Notes: a model not told the origin generated them from the sequence alone. Positions 9,442 to 59,619 are shown, counted from the stretch's first letter. The stretch: DNA of 64,000 nt from a bacterium (GCA_021815315.1 JAKAHB010000002.1:6427-70426); one strand, 5' to 3'. Numbers and translations are program-made.

Positions 9442-9456
9442 CTTTAATTTCAACCT

Positions 9457-9500
9457 AAAGACCCGTCCTTAACTAAAAGAGCGGGTCTTTAGGTTTTTTT
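9457..9500 (+). terminator. intrinsic terminator after pth
   Basis: aaagacccg...cgggtcttt hairpin followed by a T7 run. Confidence 0.75.
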
Positions 9501-9504
9501 ATTT

Positions 9505-9661
9505 TTTGTTTGGCAAGGCACTACCTGCAAGCCTCAGAAGGCGGTCCGACTAGCGGTTCCTTCCAAAATTAACAGCTACTGGCGAGAGAGTTAGGAGGGT
9601 TTTCTCTGCTTTGGCCACTCGCAGGTAGAGCGCTGCCAACAAAACTTTATCTTGTATTTGA
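9505..9661 (-). ncRNA. candidate small RNA, about 150 nt, with a GC-rich structured core
   Basis: Driven by the consensus promoter at 9668-9695. The core (9512-9625) is closed by an 8-bp helix CUACCUGC/GCAGGUAG and has internal hairpins. I see no convincing ORF and could not assign it to a known family. Confidence 0.3.
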
Positions 9662-9667
9662 TACTGT

Positions 9668-9695
9668 ATTATAGCAGAATAAAACATTTTGTCAA
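9668..9695 (-). promoter_or_regulatory. sigma-70-like promoter TTGACA-16-TATAAT
   Basis: Minus-strand reading gives TTGACAaaatgttttattctgcTATAAT. Confidence 0.5.
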
Positions 9696-9775: not shown

Positions 9776-10195
9776 TCAGGCATCAAGGCCTGAACGTTTT
9801 TTTTCCGGCTCGGCCGGTTTTGGCACCGCCGGGCAGATGATAACCCCGGCGTAGTGCCCCTCCTTGAAGAACAACTCCGGCTCCTGGAGGGGCGGGAAGT
9901 TGAACCTTTTTTCCAGCGCCTCCATGAGGAGCTGGGACTCGCTCCTCCCTTCTTTTTCTCCCCCCTCCCCCGAGAACGGGATGGCCCACTTCTTGCCCAT
10001 TTCGCCCATTTCGATTTCGTAGACGTTGTAGGCAAGAATCAACGTCTTCTTGCCGTCATTATCAAGGTGGAGCGTGATCCTCAGCTGCCCTATCGGCTCT
10101 TCACCGACCAGCTCCCCGGGGTCGGCCGAAACGAGCCCACCGCAGATCACCAGCAGGGCCAAGACGATCCCCACGACCACCAGAAACTTTTTCAT
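9776..10195 (-). CDS. hypothetical secreted/lipoprotein-like protein in a GC-rich cassette
   Basis: 139 aa with N-terminal signal peptide MKKFLVVVGIVLALLVICGG. SD GGGAGG 4 nt upstream. The segment is roughly 60% GC and uses GCC/CTG/GAC-type codons, unlike its neighbours. An alternative frame (9550-10035) is judged spurious. Confidence 0.5.
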   Translation of the reverse strand: MKKFLVVVGIVLALLVICGGLVSADPGELVGEEPIGQLRITLHLDNDGKKTLILAYNVYEIEMGEMGKKWAIPFSGEGGEKEGRSESQLLMEALEKRFNFPPLQEPELFFKEGHYAGVIICPAVPKPAEPEKKRSGLDA

Positions 10196-10315
10196 GACTC
10201 CCTCCCTTTACCAGTTCCAGCTGCACCGCAGGTCCCGCTCTTGGCGCCCACGATGCCTCCTCGCGATAGTCGCCCGGTTTTCCAGCCAATGTTTTTTCAG
10301 CAAAAGTTTGCTTCT

Positions 10316-15148: not shown

Positions 15149-15376
15149 CTAGGTGGTGGCGATGCTGGCCAGGACGTTGGCCAAAAGCTCCTGCTTGATG
15201 CGCACGGCGCCCTCGCCGTGCCCGATCTTGCCTTCCAACTCCGTGGCGGCGCCCACGATGATGAGGTCGCCGGTGGCCTCGTCCTTGAACACGGCCGGGC
15301 AGCAGGAGCTGCCGCCGCACCTCTGATGCAGCGGGGTTAAGTTGGTCAGGCTGACTTTCTTCTTAACGGCGCTCAT
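15149..15376 (-). CDS. small hypothetical Cys-containing protein (75 aa) in a GC-rich cassette
   Basis: Reads MSAVKKKVSLTNLTPLHQRCGGSSCCPAVFKDEATGDLIIVGAATELEGKIGHGEGAVRIKQ.... A strong SD (GAGGAGG) sits immediately upstream, with a 7-bp hairpin abutting it. The segment is about 65% GC. Confidence 0.45.
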   Translation of the reverse strand: MSAVKKKVSLTNLTPLHQRCGGSSCCPAVFKDEATGDLIIVGAATELEGKIGHGEGAVRIKQELLANVLASIATT

Positions 15377-15428
15377 AGAAACCTCCTCGCGGACCCTGCA
15401 AAGGTCCGCCGTTTTGGGTTGATTTTTT

Positions 15429-15457
15429 CATTATAGGCATTATCCCAAACTTGTCAA
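15429..15457 (-). promoter_or_regulatory. sigma-70-like promoter TTGACA-17-TATAAT for the small Cys ORF
   Basis: Minus-strand reading gives TTGACAagtttgggataatgccTATAAT. Confidence 0.5.
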
Positions 15458-28441: not shown

Positions 28442-28700
28442 TAAAAAAGGGGCCCCGGGGGGCCCGCCAGTTCAGCGCCTATAGCTCTCGTTGCACCTGT
28501 CCGCCTCTTCGGGCGTCGTTACCCGATAGTGGCCCCGGGGCTGCAAACTGCAGTCCAGATACCACCGACCTCAGGTCATGCCAAAGTGGAGCGTTCCTTT
28601 GCATCCCGCCTCGGGACACGGGTCGCCTTCTTTGGCGGCTTTCCACTGGGGTGAATCCTTGCTCGGCATACACCTTCCTCCGTAAAAGTTAACTTTCCCC
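28442..28700 (-). other. GC-rich structured transcript with a short ORF, immediately upstream of leuS (function unknown)
   Basis: Bounded by a promoter at 28701-28729 and the terminator GGGCCCCCCGGGGCCCC-U6 (28442-28468). It contains SD GGAGGAAGG and then either an ATG 31-aa ORF (MPSKDSPQWKAAKEGDPCPEAGCKGTLHFGMT) or a GTG 64-aa ORF. About 65% GC with many hairpins. I did not find T-box, RNase P or SRP signatures. Confidence 0.3.
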
Positions 28701-28729
28701 AGACTACCATTTTAATTTTGGATGTCAAG
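28701..28729 (-). promoter_or_regulatory. sigma-70-like promoter TTGACA-17-TAGTCT
   Basis: Minus-strand reading gives TTGACAtccaaaattaaaatggtTAGTCT. Confidence 0.45.
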
Positions 28730-53368: not shown

Positions 53369-53414
53369 AATACTTTGATTTTAGCCCAAATAAACAAATT
53401 TTAGCAAGCCGTTT

Positions 53415-53465
53415 TGTAAAGGCCGGGTCTTTACAAGTTATCCAGTAAAGACCCGGCCTTTACAA
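53415..53465. repeat. 20-bp perfect inverted repeat in the argS/smpB divergent region
   Basis: ttgtaaaggccgggtctttacaa ... gtaaagacccggcctttacaa. Each arm is itself hairpin-capable. Confidence 0.55.
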
Positions 53466-53544
53466 AACAAAAAACCGCTCTTGTCAATAGCGAGCTTCTA
53501 TGTTATGCTTTGCTATAAATAAACAGTCGGATCCGCGAGACAGT

Positions 53545-54054: not shown

Positions 54055-54435
54055 GGGGACGCTAGGCTTCGACAGTCTGTCTAGCTTAGTATTCAAGCCG
54101 AGTACGCAGGAATCTCGCAAAACTTCTTGCAGTCTCACAAATGCCAACTTTATGGCTAGAGTGAAGAGCGCTTTCAGCGTCCCTTCATTCGCTACCGCTT
54201 TAGCTTAAAAACCTAGAGCCATCCGACTTACGGATACTCAATAAGTAAGATCCGGGTGTCATTTCATTGAGTTAGGCTAGGTCACGCTGTGGGATTTAGC
54301 CAAAACCAAAACAGCTACGGTTAAAAGATTTTGGTCCGCTTATATCTTCTAACCCGAACAAATTAAGCGGAATAAGCTTGTAAAATTACTAAGTAATGCC
54401 TGACTGGACAGGGGTTCAATTCCCCTCGTCTCCAC
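54055..54435 (+). ncRNA. ssrA: tmRNA (transfer-messenger RNA)
   Basis: 5' GGGGACGCUAGGCUUCGACAG resembles the tmRNA 5' end. 3' GGACAGGGGUUCAAUUCCCCUCGUCUCCACC gives a tRNA-Ala-like T-arm and acceptor with a G3-U70 pair. An internal tag ORF reads ...ARVKSAFSVPSFATALA-stop (about 54150-54208). Sits directly after smpB. Confidence 0.85.
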
Positions 54436-54517
54436 CGCGTTCGGGTTTAATGTTCTGCTTGAACGCGAATTAAAGACCAAGAACCCCCATTAAAGTCCAC
54501 CATTAAATTAACCATTC

Positions 54518-56326: not shown

Positions 56327-56779
56327 TTATAAACTTTTTGCGAGAAATTCATCAGCCTTTTTTAAAACCTCTCGATTATTTCCTTTCAATTTCCGCCACG
56401 CCTGCTCAAAGGGCAGCCAAGCGAAGTCTTCGTGTTCAAAAGATAACTTAATCTTCTTGTTTTTTGCCTCGGCTAAAAAATAGGTAACAAATTTTATCAC
56501 CGTTTCCCCTATTTTCAAACCACGCTCCAGCTGATAATCAAATTTCGCCTTCATAAAAAATCTAATTGTTTCCTTAAATCCGCTCAACAAAAAAATATTC
56601 CCCAGTCCCGCTTCTTCTTCGGCTTCCCGCCGAGCCGTTTCTTCCAATTTTTCTCCAACCTCAATCAGGCCTTTGGGAAAAGACCAAAAATCAGCTCTGG
56701 TATGTTTGAGTAACAAATATTCAACTTGTTCGCCAGCGCGATAAAAAACTATCACTCCGGCTGATTTTTCAACGGGCAT
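56327..56779 (-). CDS. NUDIX hydrolase
   Basis: Nudix box GLIEVGEKLEETARREAEEEAGL. Start at the internal ATG 56777-56779, which leaves room for the divergent promoter at 56848-56875. Confidence 0.8.
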   Translation of the reverse strand: MPVEKSAGVIVFYRAGEQVEYLLLKHTRADFWSFPKGLIEVGEKLEETARREAEEEAGLGNIFLLSGFKETIRFFMKAKFDYQLERGLKIGETVIKFVTYFLAEAKNKKIKLSFEHEDFAWLPFEQAWRKLKGNNREVLKKADEFLAKSL

Positions 56780-56847
56780 CTTGGAACAGCGTGTCAAGTA
56801 GCGGATAGCCATTGGTATGGCCAATCGCCAGCCACGGGCTTTGCCTC

Positions 56848-56875
56848 TTGACAAAAACATTCTTTATGATATAAT
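56848..56875 (+). promoter_or_regulatory. consensus sigma-70 promoter TTGACA-16-TATAAT
   Basis: ttgacaaaaacattctttatgatataat; perfect hexamers. Confidence 0.55.
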
Positions 56876-56902
56876 ATAAGCAACTTTAACAGGAGGAAAG
56901 CC

Positions 56903-57094
56903 ATGGCCCCGAGAGCCTGTGTCGTCCTTCTGGAGCGGGGATGGACGCTGGAGGCGCCCTCTCCGGTCGTTCTTGGACCGAACGGCCGGCCCGCTACGCC
57001 CACTACCGGAACCTTGGTCCCGGTGACAACGGCAGAGAAGACTGCCGGAAAGGAGATCAACGTTGTTGTCCTCCCCGTTCTCCCCCACCGCTAA
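56903..57094 (+). CDS. small hypothetical protein (63 aa) in a GC-rich cassette
   Basis: SD AGGAGG 6 nt upstream of ATG. About 63% GC. Followed by the terminator at 57106-57131. Confidence 0.4.
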   Translation: MAPRACVVLLERGWTLEAPSPVVLGPNGRPATPTTGTLVPVTTAEKTAGKEINVVVLPVLPHR

Positions 57095-57105
57095 ACTCCC
57101 TCCCT

Positions 57106-57131
57106 CGGAGCCCCCACGGGCTCCTTTTTGA
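57106..57131 (+). terminator. intrinsic terminator of the 56903-57094 ORF
   Basis: ggagccc-ccac-gggctcc followed by a T5 run. Confidence 0.7.
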
Positions 57132-57176
57132 TTCTCCAGAAAGTTTTATAAACCAAAACAAGCGCGACCAAATTTA

Positions 57177-57872
57177 TTATTTTGAAAAGTTCGCCAATTT
57201 TTTTCCCAGTTTGCTTCCCTTAAAATAAAATCTGAAAAAAACTCCGGTAAACAAATAGAACGCCCAATGAACGATATAGCTGTAAACAACACCGGCATTA
57301 AAATAATAAATCAGGGCGGGAAAAATCAGGCCCGCCAAAATGGAAGCGCCGATAAAATATTCGCCGAAAGCGAAACCAAAGAAAATTAAAATAGGCACAT
57401 GCACAAAGGCAAAAATCAAGGCGAAAGAAGCGATCAAGCGACCATCACCCAGTCCTTGGCGAACCAACCAGGAAACCAGCAACAAGACCATCACCTGCTG
57501 AAAAAATATCTCAACAGACCTTGAAAAAATCTGGCGATAATCCATTTTCAAAAAAGTAAGACTATGGTTGTCGCTCGTTAATTTTTCCACGACCCGGGGC
57601 ATCTGTTTGGACCGGTTAGCTAGCCAGTGAATTATAATGTTAACCACAAAAAATCCTCCCAAAACAACCAGGGAAACGACGTTAATTTGTCGGACAAAGT
57701 CAAAAAAATAATTTTTAAAAACATAGATGACACCCAGCGAAGCCGCCAGAAAATAAATTGAAGTAACCAAGAAATTATTAATATAATCTATTCCTCGCTT
57801 GACAAAAAAGATGTAGAAAATACCCAAGACCAGAAACCAAATAAAAATCCACGTGAATAAGTTTAGGGCCAT
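57177..57872 (-). CDS. hypothetical polytopic membrane protein
   Basis: 231 aa with about 7 TM helices and FxxxH / HxxxN-like motifs, but not in canonical CPBP order. Confidence 0.35.
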   Translation of the reverse strand: MALNLFTWIFIWFLVLGIFYIFFVKRGIDYINNFLVTSIYFLAASLGVIYVFKNYFFDFVRQINVVSLVVLGGFFVVNIIIHWLANRSKQMPRVVEKLTSDNHSLTFLKMDYRQIFSRSVEIFFQQVMVLLLVSWLVRQGLGDGRLIASFALIFAFVHVPILIFFGFAFGEYFIGASILAGLIFPALIYYFNAGVVYSYIVHWAFYLFTGVFFRFYFKGSKLGKKLANFSK

Positions 57873-57876
57873 AGTT

Positions 57877-59619
57877 TTATTTTTTGAAATGTTTTAATAA
57901 GTCTTTCCAACCAAGTGTGTTTAAGACATCGCTTTTTTTGGCCCAGCCGCGACGGGCAACGGCCACGCCCAATTCCAAAAATTCTAAGTGCTGGGCAGAA
58001 TGGGCATCCGTGCCGATGGTCAATTTGACGCCCAAGCTCACCGCCTTTTTGACGTTCTGCCAAGACAAATCCAGCCTTTCCGGATAGGCGTTGATTTCAA
58101 TGGCCGTGCCAGTGGCCACCGCCTTTTTAAAAACCTGGTCCCAATTGACCTCGTAACCCTCGCGGCGCAACAACAATCTTCCGCTCGGATGCGCCCAGAC
58201 GTCCAGGTGCGGGTTTTCCATCGCCCGGCAAACGCGTTCCGTCATCGCCTCTTTGCTCATTTTGAAATTATCATGAATAGAGCCTAGGCAAATATCCAGC
58301 TTGGCCAAGACCTCGTCTTTGATATGCAACTGCCCATCTTTGTCGATGTCCACTTCCGCGCCTTTTAAAATTTTGATGCCCGCCATCTTTCTATCAACCG
58401 CGCCAATTTCCTCCATTTGTTTTAACAATTCTTTTTCTTTCATGCTGCCGGCGATCGCCAGTCTCCCCGCGTGATCGGTTATGGCGATGTATTCATGCCC
58501 CAGCTTTTTGGCGGCTTTGGCCATCTCTTCAATGGAATAGGCGCCATCGCTCCAAGTTGAATGCATCTGCAAGTCGCCCAAAACGTCTTGGCGCTCAACC
58601 AGTTTGGGAAATTTTCCTTTTTTAGCCAGCTCTATCTCTCCGGTATTTTCCCTGGCCTCGGGGGGGATTGCTTGCAGGCCCAAAAATTTATAGATGCCTT
58701 CTTCTTGCTCGCCGGCAACCAAGTTTTTTTCGTTTTTTGTTTTTGGTTTTTGGTTTAATTTAAAGATCCCATATTCATTTAATTTATATCCTTGGTCAGT
58801 CGCTATTTTTCGCAATTCCACGTTGTGCTCTTTATTGCCGGTAAAATATTGCCAGGCTGCGCCAAAACTTTCCCCGGGGATAACCCGCAAGTCCGCGTCA
58901 ATCCCCCAGTCCAGTCGTACTTTAGCCTTGGTATCCCCTTGCCCATAGATTTTAACCACGCTCGGCAAAGAAACAAAAAATTCAATGACTCTTTGGGGGC
59001 TACTAGATACGGCCAGAATATCTATATCGCCGATTGTTTCCTTCAGGCGCCGCAACGAACCGGCAATCTCAATTTTTTCAACTTCCTTCAGTTTGGCCAG
59101 TTTGTTTTTCAACTCTCGCACCGGTGGTAAGATATAACCCAATAAAAAACGGCCTTGGTCTTGTTTGGCAAAATCAATGGCCGATAAAATATTTTCTTCG
59201 GATTTAATCCCGAAATGTTCCAACTGGCTAATTTTGCCGGCCTTGGCCGCCTTTTCCAGGTCGGCCAAGTTTCTTATCTTCAGCTGCTGATAGAAAGTTT
59301 TAATCGTTTTGGGCCCCACGCCTTCTAATCGCGAAAGCCCCTCAAGGTCAACAGGTATTTTTTTCTTTAAGGCTTCCAACTCTTTTATCTTTCCGGCTTT
59401 AATAAACTCTTCAATTTTGTCGGCAATCCCTTCGCCAATGCCGGAAATTTTTTTTAAGCCTTGTCTGCCGCCAAGCCGATAGATCTCCCCCAAGTCTTCT
59501 TCCATCGCCTCAATCTCTTGGGCCACGCGTTCATAGGCCCGGGGCTTAAATTGCACCTCGTCCATTTCCAAGTAAATGGCTAACTGATAAAAGAGATGGG
59601 CCAGTTTTTGGTTAATCAT
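57877..59619 (-). CDS. polX: DNA polymerase X family protein with a C-terminal PHP phosphoesterase domain
   Basis: N-terminal Pol-beta-like HhH/palm, and a C-terminal PHP (LQMHSTWSDGAYSIEEM...ITDHAGRL). Confidence 0.85.
   Translation of the reverse strand: MINQKLAHLFYQLAIYLEMDEVQFKPRAYERVAQEIEAMEEDLGEIYRLGGRQGLKKISGIGEGIADKIEEFIKAGKIKELEALKKKIPVDLEGLSRLEGVGPKTIKTFYQQLKIRNLADLEKAAKAGKISQLEHFGIKSEENILSAIDFAKQDQGRFLLGYILPPVRELKNKLAKLKEVEKIEIAGSLRRLKETIGDIDILAVSSSPQRVIEFFVSLPSVVKIYGQGDTKAKVRLDWGIDADLRVIPGESFGAAWQYFTGNKEHNVELRKIATDQGYKLNEYGIFKLNQKPKTKNEKNLVAGEQEEGIYKFLGLQAIPPEARENTGEIELAKKGKFPKLVERQDVLGDLQMHSTWSDGAYSIEEMAKAAKKLGHEYIAITDHAGRLAIAGSMKEKELLKQMEEIGAVDRKMAGIKILKGAEVDIDKDGQLHIKDEVLAKLDICLGSIHDNFKMSKEAMTERVCRAMENPHLDVWAHPSGRLLLRREGYEVNWDQVFKKAVATGTAIEINAYPERLDLSWQNVKKAVSLGVKLTIGTDAHSAQHLEFLELGVAVARRGWAKKSDVLNTLGWKDLLKHFKK

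What the first reader, a model, noticed from the sequence alone, without database searches (positions are those of the whole stretch)
56848..57131. Third GC-rich cassette: perfect TTGACA-16-TATAAT promoter, AGGAGG SD, 63-aa ORF, terminator
It lies in the divergent region upstream of the NUDIX gene. Perfect -35 and -10 hexamers and a textbook SD drive a 63-aa ORF (MAPRACVVLLERGWTLEAPSPVVLGPNGRPATPTTGTLVPVTTAEKTAGKEINVVVLPVLPHR) at about 63% GC. It ends in the hairpin ggagccc-ccac-gggctcc plus T5. Signals this strong on so short an ORF suggest an abundantly expressed small protein or a dual-function sRNA. Together with the cassettes at 9.8, 15.2 and 28.5 kb, it suggests a dispersed family of compositionally atypical small-gene units.
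Basis: seen in the sequence. Interest (0 to 1): 0.5.

Follow-up and report, generated by a model that had tools for sequence, protein, structure and literature searches.

The report
Orphan GC-rich small protein gene
This is a real, self-contained small gene with its own promoter, ribosome-binding site and terminator; it most likely makes a 63-residue protein of unknown function that occurs only in a narrow group of uncultured Patescibacteria-like bacteria, so it is an unusual orphan gene and not a known RNA or a major discovery.

Summary
These are a 12/12 TTGACA-16-TATAAT promoter with a TG extension, AGGAGG 6 nt before the ATG, a 63-codon ORF, and a 7-bp GC hairpin followed by T5.

No Rfam family matches. 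The transcript folds only marginally better than shuffled sequence, and no RNA structure apart from the terminator is conserved.

Two homologous cassettes were found, in L006 and L027, at the same syntenic site: polX and a membrane-protein gene, then the cassette on the opposite strand, then NUDIX and vanZ. Both keep the promoter, SD-to-start spacing, reading frame and terminator. The two indels that can be aligned are in frame. The annotated frame is the best conserved of the six frames. The motif PSPxxLxxxGRPxTPTT is kept while its synonymous sites vary. I conclude that this is a translated orphan small protein gene (about 0.7).

Constraint is weak (dN/dS about 0.5-0.6). GC3 stays at 0.70-0.79 against 0.42-0.54 in host genes. 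Two otherwise 98-99% identical strains differ completely across the 5' half.

The "dispersed family" idea holds for architecture and composition only. The cassettes share no sequence similarity and are variably present. The protein's function is unknown.

The parts
56848..56853 (+). -35 hexamer TTGACA. The surrounding CCTCTTGACAAAAA is identical in all three lineages.
56867..56875 (+). Extended -10 element TGaTATAAT. The transcription start is inferred at about 56882-56883.
   Evidence: 12/12 match, TG present; conserved in L006 and L027. The start site is an inference, not mapped.
56891..56896 (+). Shine-Dalgarno sequence AGGAGG, 6 nt upstream of the start codon.
   Evidence: GGAGG and the spacing to ATG/GTG are retained in L006 and L027, even inside the hypervariable patch.
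56903..57094 (+). 63-codon ORF plus TAA stop: MAPRACVVLLERGWTLEAPSPVVLGPNGRPATPTTGTLVPVTTAEKTAGKEINVVVLPVLPHR. GC1/2/3 are 0.69/0.55/0.70.
   Evidence: It is the best-conserved of the six frames in every pairwise comparison.
56954..57013 (+). Most conserved protein segment, residues 18-37: [AM]PSP[VL][VI]L[GD][PS][NDQ]GRP[AT]TPTT[GA]T. Many third-position synonymous changes separate the alleles.
56877..57010 (+). Window equivalent of the roughly 135-nt hypervariable patch, running from the transcription start and 5'UTR to about codon 36. In this patch the otherwise 98-99% identical relatives L006 and L027 are only about 50% identical.
57107..57129 (+). Intrinsic terminator: a 7-bp stem (6 GC pairs), a 4-nt loop and T5. 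It is unidirectional, with no T-run on the minus strand.
   Evidence: The stem is identical in L006 and L027; only the loop differs (A to G).
56327..56779 (-). Flanking NUDIX hydrolase gene. Its probable true start is 56779, giving 150 aa.
57177..57872 (-). Flanking 231-aa multi-pass membrane protein gene with no Pfam match. It is the last gene of the polX unit and converges on the cassette.

Best explanation
This is a standalone monocistronic small-protein gene.

Mechanism, with shown and inferred steps marked:
- A consensus sigma-70 extended -10 promoter starts a transcript of about 245 nt near 56882. The motifs are shown; the start site and transcript length are inferred.
- A canonical AGGAGG with 6-nt spacing drives translation of a 63-residue protein. 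The protein is rich in Pro, Thr, Val and Gly, has no signal peptide or transmembrane segment, and is probably beta-rich or partly disordered.
- A GC hairpin followed by T5 ends the transcript 48 nt before the convergent membrane-protein gene.

The unit lies on the opposite strand inside an otherwise co-oriented array: polX, membrane protein, NUDIX, vanZ. It is restricted to a narrow clade of Patescibacteria-like bacteria.

The protein is an orphan under weak purifying selection, with a conserved central motif PSPxxLxxxGRPxTPTT.

Its 5' half exists as deeply diverged alleles that are exchanged between near-identical strains. From this I infer, at low confidence, that it is an abundant small binding or modulator protein whose N-terminal half determines specificity in some recognition or conflict interaction.

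The high GC at all codon positions is kept across alleles. This points to selection on the transcript, for example for mRNA stability, or to origin and continued exchange in a GC-rich gene pool.
For: The expression signals are present and conserved.
- All signals are at the stated coordinates.
- Perfect promoters are enriched: 3 found against 0.22 expected.
- Homologous cassettes lie at the identical syntenic position in L006 and L027. They share the same promoter, SD, start position (ATG or GTG), an ORF of 60-62 codons, and the terminator.

Several lines support protein coding.
- The two indels that can be aligned inside the ORF are 3 and 6 nt, both in frame.
- In the core segment, 10 of 20 codons differ only synonymously between the window and L006. 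Over codons 17-55, differences by codon position are 12:5:23 (my count).
- The annotated frame gives the highest protein-level similarity of all six frames for every pair. The scores are 126 vs 55/39, 143 vs 103/69, and 90 vs 41/40 in the hypervariable half.
- It is the only frame open in both the window and L006.
- GC3 > GC1 > GC2 periodicity holds in two of the three alleles; in L027 GC1 equals GC2.

The RNA alternative finds no support.
- No Rfam family matches at gathering threshold or at E<=10.
- No conserved RNA structure is found.
- Folding z is only -1.9, against -6.0 for a true ORF-less RNA driven by the same kind of promoter in this window.
Against: - Only three alleles exist among 5.8 billion proteins at 90% clustering and 1.84 billion cluster representatives, so statistical power is low.
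- Overall dN/dS is 0.5-0.6. In the C-terminal half, pN is about equal to pS (0.35 vs 0.35-0.41), which looks nearly neutral.
- Codon-position asymmetry over the whole ORF is modest: 24:11:24 and 24:18:30.
- AlphaFold gives no confident fold, with pLDDT 52.7 and 49.4.
- Nothing matches in Pfam or NCBIfam (E<=1), in PHROGs or PADLOC below E=0.5, or in PDB below E=4.9.
- GC-rich sequence stays open in several frames by chance.
- GC3 maintenance and slightly reduced synonymous divergence (pS 0.46-0.51 against 0.54-0.66 in flanking genes) hint at an RNA-level constraint.
- No transcript or peptide data were available.
Confidence: 0.7

Rival explanations
1. The cassette encodes a structured or base-pairing small RNA, possibly dual-function. 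The ORF is incidental or secondary. The GC-richness and the strong promoter and terminator reflect an RNA gene.
For: - The GC island in a 45% GC genome is bounded sharply by the promoter and the terminator. This is the classic signature of structured RNAs in AT-rich genomes, although such searches also recover short peptide ORFs (PMC6429828).
- GC3 is kept at 0.70-0.79 in all three alleles despite about 50% synonymous divergence.
- The promoter and terminator are better conserved than the ORF.
- dN/dS is near 1 in the 3' half.
- The L027 transcript folds with z = -3.9.
- The same perfect promoter type drives an ORF-less structured RNA at 9.45-9.70 kb.
Against: - No Rfam hit.
- The consensus fold has an unfavourable covariation term (+4.67), and many predicted pairs are broken in one of the three sequences.
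- MFE structures differ between homologues, and two of the three z-scores are unremarkable.
- The SD, the spacing, the start codon and a protein motif with synonymous variation are conserved even within the hypervariable patch.
- The alignable indels are in frame.
Confidence: 0.12
2. The ORF is an expressed remnant of horizontally acquired DNA from a GC-rich donor, for example a single blade of a YVTN-type beta-propeller repeat protein. It persists with little or no protein-level function.
For: - GC is raised at all three codon positions, and the amino-acid bias is of the Gly/Ala/Arg/Pro type.
- The exhaustive HMMER search hit P0007, a 444-aa YVTN repeat protein (TIGR02276, E 3e-25), at 42-44% identity to single blades.
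- hhalign against its repeat profile gives 66% probability.
- Selective constraint is weak.
- Such cassettes are variably present between lineages.
Against: - The E-value of 7e-12 is the sum of 8 near-identical repeats. A single-blade BLASTP match (32 bits, E 3e-7 for one comparison) would not be significant across 2.4e11 residues (my calculation).
- The ORF itself does not hit TIGR02276 or any Pfam propeller model at E<=1.
- The expression signals are perfect and conserved, and the promoter is AT-rich like the host genome.
- GC3 has not drifted towards host values although flanking synonymous sites are saturated. This argues against a decaying remnant.
Confidence: 0.1
3. The main role is in cis. 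A very strong promoter faces the polX and membrane-gene unit and sits immediately upstream of NUDIX and vanZ. It acts by transcriptional interference or antisense pairing to control read-through into NUDIX-vanZ. The peptide is a by-product.
For: - The cassette is antiparallel to four co-oriented genes.
- No minus-strand terminator follows the membrane-protein gene, and the cassette's terminator is unidirectional.
- In L006 and L027 only about 24 nt separate the NUDIX start codon from the cassette's -35, which leaves no room for a dedicated NUDIX promoter.
- In a distant lineage (L008-L011), a membrane-protein homologue and a NUDIX gene are adjacent with a 2-nt gap.
Against: - This does not explain the conserved SD, start codon, frame and protein motif.
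- The NUDIX gene in L008 is only weakly similar (24% identity, E 0.001), so the 'split operon' inference is tentative.
- There are no transcript data.
- This rival is compatible with the best explanation and need not replace it.
Confidence: 0.05
4. The ORF is a precursor of a secreted or modified peptide, such as a RiPP, bacteriocin or pheromone. Its variable half would define strain-specific 'pherotypes'.
For: - Half of the small ORF is hypervariable between near-identical strains while the other half is conserved.
- The sequence is rich in Cys and Thr.
- Expression signals are strong.
Against: - There is no signal or leader motif.
- No modifying enzyme, transporter or sensor gene lies within about 3 kb on either side.
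- The neighbouring membrane protein matches no Pfam family, including CPBP/Abi.
- The variable half is N-terminal and extends into the 5'UTR. That fits recombination better than selection on a core peptide.
Confidence: 0.03

Closest known systems
Lineage-specific (orphan) bacterial small proteins of under 100 aa, encoded by independent sORF transcription units
   Same: It has its own promoter, SD and intrinsic terminator. It is about 60 aa long and has a narrow phylogenetic range. It has no recognisable domain. It evolves fast under weak purifying selection.
   Different: GC at all codon positions is far above host genes (GC3 0.70-0.79 vs 0.42-0.54) and is kept across diverged alleles. Its 5' half shows allelic replacement between near-identical strains.
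GC-rich intergenic islands in AT-rich genomes, as used to find structured ncRNAs (GC-IGR approach, PMC6429828)
   Same: It is a sharp GC island between genes in an AT-richer genome. That approach also reports peptide-encoding short ORFs among such islands.
   Different: No conserved RNA structure or Rfam family was found here. The conservation pattern fits a reading frame.
YVTN-family beta-propeller repeat (TIGR02276), as a single blade
   Same: There is local similarity of residues 21-54 to the blades of one repeat protein: xxPDGKxxxxxxxGTVxPITTATNTAGKPIxV against LGPNGRPATPTTGTLVPVTTAEKTAGKEINV.
   Different: The ORF does not match the family model. The similarity is not significant once the summing of repeats is discounted. 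The strand motif 'AYV' is missing. It is a single 63-aa chain and not a multi-blade protein.
Dual-function sRNAs such as SgrS/SgrT or RNAIII/delta-haemolysin (from general knowledge)
   Same: It is a short, strongly expressed transcript carrying a small ORF, with a possible constraint on synonymous sites.
   Different: No base-pairing target or conserved non-coding stem-loops were identified. The ORF fills nearly the whole transcript, leaving a 5'UTR of about 20 nt and a 3'UTR of about 35 nt.

Membership tests
Any Rfam 15 RNA family | Covariance-model score at or above the family's gathering threshold | tested here: not met
   There is no hit in 56800-57200 at gathering threshold. At E<=10 only chance-level hits appear, the best at 19 bits against a 37-bit gathering threshold.
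Structured ncRNA (generic) | Conserved secondary structure with compensatory changes, and folding energy well below shuffled sequence | tested here: inconclusive
   The covariation term is +4.67 and many pairs are broken. z-scores are -1.9, -3.9 and -1.1. With only three sequences the test has little power.
Protein-coding gene | Reading frame, start signal and amino-acid similarity conserved among homologues, with in-frame indels | tested here: met
   The frame is open in all three alleles. The SD spacing is kept. The alignable indels are 3 and 6 nt. The annotated frame scores highest of the six.
Protein-coding gene | Purifying selection (dN/dS well below 1) | tested here: inconclusive
   dN/dS is 0.51-0.60 overall. 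It is about 0.5 in the N-terminal half for window vs L027 and about 1 in the C-terminal half. Flanking genes give 0.06-0.12.
YVTN beta-propeller repeat (TIGR02276 / Pfam Lactonase) | Match to the repeat model | tested here: not met
   P0001, P0008 and P0011 give no NCBIfam or Pfam hit at E<=1. hhalign to the P0007 repeats gives only 66% probability.
Type I toxin (small toxic peptide with antisense RNA) | Hydrophobic transmembrane helix in a peptide of under 60 aa | tested here: not met
   The sequence has no hydrophobic stretch longer than about 6 residues.
Leader peptide / attenuator | A regulated gene downstream on the same strand | tested here: not met
   The terminator is followed by a convergent minus-strand gene.
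RiPP or bacteriocin precursor | Adjacent modification, export or immunity genes and a recognisable leader | tested here: not met
   The neighbours are NUDIX, VanZ, an uncharacterised membrane protein, PolX and ThiI. The membrane protein has no Pfam match.
MITE, IS fragment or integron cassette | Terminal inverted repeats or target duplication, or attC; multiple genomic copies | tested here: not met
   No other copy exists in the 64-kb window. The only flanking repeat is a 9-nt direct repeat, about 0.4 expected by chance, and it is absent from L006 and L027.
Diversity-generating retroelement target (variable repeat) | Variation confined to adenine-templated sites with no indels; a template repeat and reverse transcriptase nearby | tested here: not met
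   The L006/L027 patch differs at about half of all positions, contains indels and extends into the 5'UTR. No repeat of the region exists in the window. A reverse transcriptase gene was not searched for specifically.
CsrA-like small RNA-binding protein | Sequence or profile similarity to CsrA | tested here: not met
   hhalign gives a probability of 0.4%.

The most novel reading that the evidence does not exclude
The cassette may be one example of an unrecognised class in Patescibacteria-like genomes. Members would be promoter-to-terminator units that encode unrelated orphan small proteins. Their GC content would be held far above the host's by selection on the transcript, or by circulation in a GC-rich mobile gene pool. 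They would be gained and lost between close lineages, and their 5' halves swapped between strains by recombination. That would make them fast-turnover effector genes for symbiont-host or phage conflict, or former ncRNA genes turning into mRNAs (dual-function RNAs).
Probability: 0.12. Interest if true: 0.6.

Novelty: new member of a known kind. Interest (0 to 1): 0.33.

Why it matters
If the protein is real and abundant, it adds a lineage-specific small protein to organisms with tiny genomes, where every retained, strongly expressed gene is likely to matter.

Three features make it a useful test case: GC3 persistently above the host level, variable presence of similar cassettes, and replacement of one half between near-identical strains. 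They bear on how orphan small genes arise and are maintained, and on whether mRNA-level selection shapes their composition.

The practical lesson is that GC islands with perfect promoters in this genome are a mixture. Some are small orphan ORFs. At least one, at 9.45-9.70 kb, is an unannotated structured RNA. Composition alone cannot tell them apart.

Tried and rejected
**Known RNA family.** Rfam gave nothing at gathering threshold over the whole window or at E<=10 over the locus.

**Conserved RNA structure.** RNAalifold on two and then three homologues found only the terminator conserved.

**Protein homologues.**
- The word-based search with the ORF returned only the ORF itself.
- Exhaustive phmmer against 1.84e9 representatives found one true homologue plus repeat proteins.
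- A profile search added one more homologue.
- The JGI metagenome scan returned only a spurious eukaryotic intron hit, L013.
- The viral contig, phage and plasmid collections returned nothing.

**Synteny.** The genome-contig scan with the membrane-protein family found only relatives at 38% identity or less. None carries the ORF.

**Domain libraries.** Pfam and NCBIfam gave nothing at E<=1. PHROGs gave only one chance-level hit (E 0.54) and PADLOC none. The PDB search returned only chance matches at E about 5.

**Structure prediction.** Two AlphaFold runs gave pLDDT of about 50, so no fold search was made.

**CsrA.** I noticed a resemblance by eye; hhalign rejected it.

**CPBP/Abi identity of the neighbouring membrane protein.** This would have suggested a bacteriocin and immunity pair. 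Pfam does not support it.

**Mobile element.** There are no further copies and no meaningful terminal repeats.

**Sequence relationship among the four window cassettes.** None was found.

**Antisense gene.** The -1 frame scores second best, as expected for the codon-complement frame. It lacks a promoter, an SD and a conserved start.

Full report
**1.

- -35 TTGACA lies at 56848-56853, followed by a 16-nt spacer.
- The extended -10 TGaTATAAT lies at 56867-56875 and scores 12/12 with the TG.
- AGGAGG lies at 56891-56896, six bases before the ATG at 56903.
- The 63-codon ORF ends with TAA at 57092-57094.
- The hairpin GGAGCCC-CCAC-GGGCTCC lies at 57107-57124 and is followed by T5.

The ORF is 65% GC in a window that averages 45.2%. 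The GC island is bounded sharply by the promoter and the terminator.

At one mismatch or fewer, TTGACA-N16-TATAAT occurs three times in the window, all three perfect, against 0.22 expected.

**2. Genomic setting**

The window matches a metagenome-assembled genome, GCA_027424105.1. Fifteen contigs carry the identical ORF, and the five loci retrieved, from several samples, match the window exactly over their whole length. This is a clonal population and adds no comparative information.

The relatives of the neighbouring membrane protein are Patescibacteria and DPANN MAGs.

The cassette lies on the plus strand between minus-strand genes. Upstream in their direction of transcription are polX (57877..59619) and a 231-aa membrane-protein gene (57177..57872). 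Downstream are NUDIX and vanZ.

NUDIX most likely starts at 56779, giving 150 aa as in L027, and not at 56860.

**3. It is not a known RNA**

Rfam finds only the tmRNA and a tRNA in the window. Nothing matches at this locus, even at E<=10.

The predicted transcript folds with z = -1.9. For comparison, an ORF-less transcript driven by another perfect promoter at 9695->9668 on the minus strand folds into one long hairpin with z = -6.0.

**4. Homologues**

The ORF has no relatives by word-based search. Two homologues were found by other routes.
- The neighbouring membrane protein led to L006, which is 74% identical in that protein. L006 carries a homologous cassette at the same place on the opposite strand.
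- A profile search then found P0011 in L027, a 29-kb contig with full synteny: SmpB, IF3, L35, L20, then VanZ and NUDIX, then the ORF, then the membrane protein, PolX and ThiI.
- An exhaustive HMMER scan of 1.84 billion representatives found no other true homologue.
- JGI metagenomes, viral contigs, phages and plasmids gave nothing real.

In a distant lineage (L008-L011), a homologue of the membrane protein is followed directly by a NUDIX gene with a 2-nt gap. This suggests the cassette is an insertion. That NUDIX is only weakly similar to the window's, so the inference is tentative.

**5. Coding or non-coding**

Evidence for coding:
- All three alleles keep the -35 context, the extended -10, GGAGG, the spacing to ATG or GTG, an open frame of 60-63 codons, and the terminator stem.
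- The alignable indels are 3 and 6 nt.
- In the core segment, 10 of 20 codons differ only synonymously between the window and L006. Over codons 17-55, the differences by codon position are 12:5:23.
- The annotated frame has the highest protein-level similarity of the six frames for every pair. This includes the half where L006 and L027 share only 54% nucleotide identity.

Evidence against coding:
- dN/dS is only 0.5-0.6, against 0.06-0.12 in the flanking genes.
- The C-terminal half looks nearly neutral, with pN about equal to pS.
- AlphaFold is not confident.

RNAalifold finds no conserved structure except the terminator, and the covariation term is unfavourable. The three MFE structures differ from one another.

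On balance I put the probability of a translated small protein gene at about 0.7.

**6. Unusual features**

*Composition.* GC1/2/3 of the ORF is 0.69/0.55/0.70 in the window, 0.61/0.49/0.79 in L006 and 0.56/0.56/0.75 in L027. Host genes show GC3 of 0.42-0.54, and the L006 and L027 membrane genes show 0.44. Flanking synonymous sites are saturated (dS 1.0-1.6), so the high GC is being maintained and is not a fading trace of transfer.

*Hypervariable patch.* L006 and L027 are 98-99% identical over 1.4 kb. The exception is a patch of about 135 nt that runs from the -10/start-site region to about codon 36, where identity falls to about 50%. All three 5' halves are deeply diverged from one another, while the 3' half of L006 and L027 is identical. 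This indicates allele replacement by recombination, or an assembly chimera built from real alleles. It is not a DGR pattern, because the patch has indels, differs at about half of its positions, and extends into the UTR.

**7. Function**

No domain, defence-system, phage-family or PDB match was found.

The only lead is similarity of residues 21-54 to the blades of P0007, a YVTN beta-propeller repeat protein. hhalign gives 66% probability. The database E-value is inflated because it sums eight near-identical repeats, and the ORF does not match the family model itself. I treat this as unproven.

A CsrA resemblance seen by eye was rejected. A CPBP/Abi identity for the neighbouring membrane protein was also rejected.

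My functional proposal is inference only: an abundant small binding protein whose N-terminal half sets specificity in a recognition or conflict interaction.

A cis effect on read-through from the polX unit into NUDIX-vanZ is plausible. No minus-strand terminator follows the membrane-protein gene. In L006 and L027 only about 24 nt separate the NUDIX start from the cassette's -35.

**8. The 'dispersed family' claim**

The four window cassettes share no sequence similarity and have no Pfam matches.

All four have GC3 of 0.69-0.92, against 0.498 +/- 0.046 (maximum 0.61) for 51 long ORFs. The 15.2-kb unit also has a perfect promoter.

L027 carries an additional GC-rich 76-aa cassette in the ArgRS-SmpB spacer. 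That spacer is 734 nt in L027 and 176 nt in the window, and the cassette has no homologue in the window.

A class defined by architecture and composition therefore exists and turns over between lineages. It is not a sequence family.

GC-island searches in AT-rich genomes are known to recover both structured RNAs and short peptide ORFs (PMC6429828).

**9. Verdict**

This is a real feature and an orphan small-protein gene of a known general kind. Its compositional and allelic behaviour is moderately interesting. No function can be assigned.

Noticed in passing
window 9448-9695 (minus strand): A perfect TTGACA-N16-TATAAT promoter (9695->9668) drives an ORF-less transcript of about 215 nt. The transcript folds into one long imperfect hairpin and ends in a 19-bp terminator (MFE -81.4, z = -6.0). 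No Rfam family matches at E<=1 apart from terminator-like chance hits. It is a candidate unannotated ncRNA, either 6S-like or a divergent SRP-like RNA (it contains UGGAAGGAACCGC).
   Followed up: partly
window 15149-15457 (minus strand): A second GC-rich cassette has a perfect consensus promoter (15457->15430), SD GAGGAGG and a 75-aa orphan ORF (MSAVKKKVSLTNLTPLHQRCGGSSCCPAVF...). Its GC3 is 0.92, the most extreme in the window. It has no Pfam match.
   Followed up: partly
window 9776-10251 (minus strand): A GC-rich 139-aa ORF (GC3 0.78) has an N-terminal signal-peptide-like segment (MKKFLVVVGIVLALLVICGG). It is preceded by a 19-codon upstream ORF (GTG at 10251) whose TGA stop overlaps the main ATG (ATGA), which suggests translational coupling. 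It has no Pfam match.
   Followed up: no
window 28446-28727 (minus strand): The 28.5-kb cassette has TTGACA-16-TAGTCT, SD GGAGG and a 32-aa ORF (MPSKDSPQWKAAKEGDPCPEAGCKGTLHFGMT) that ends at TGA. The frame then continues for about 31 more codons, with further Cys and His residues, up to the terminator GGGCCCCCCGGGGCCCC-T6. This could be stop-codon read-through, or the stop could be genuine with a long 3'UTR.
   Followed up: no
L027 1985-2380 (minus strand): The relative carries an extra GC-rich 76-aa orphan ORF cassette (GC3 0.78, SD GGGAGG, a -35 TTGACA and a GC hairpin followed by T6). It sits in the ArgRS-SmpB spacer. The syntenic spacer in the window (53369-53544) is only 176 nt, and no homologue exists anywhere in the window.
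   Followed up: partly
window 56780-56860: The mechanical 177-aa NUDIX ORF starting at 56860 overlaps the cassette's -35. Comparison with L006 and L027 indicates that the true start is the ATG at 56779 (150 aa). In L006 and L027 only about 24 nt separate the NUDIX start from the cassette's -35, so NUDIX has no obvious promoter of its own.
   Followed up: partly
window 54055-54437: A tmRNA gene (Rfam 143.7 bits; ARAGORN tag peptide ANFMARVKSAFSVPSFATALA) lies directly downstream of smpB.
   Followed up: no
samples SRR13240876 (L004 and L007): The window's organism and the lineage that is 74% identical to it in the membrane protein (the L006/L007 type) co-occur in the same sequencing run. That gives an opportunity for the inter-lineage recombination suggested by the mosaic 5' half of the small ORF.
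   Followed up: no
P0010 (281 aa): This odd database protein consists of four repeats of about 57 aa (…AAPAVFRPIGRSITNDTGTLLPVFFWSG…). It weakly resembles residues 9-41 of the ORF (E 2.6e-4, summed over the repeats). It may be a spurious translation of a tandem DNA repeat.
   Followed up: no
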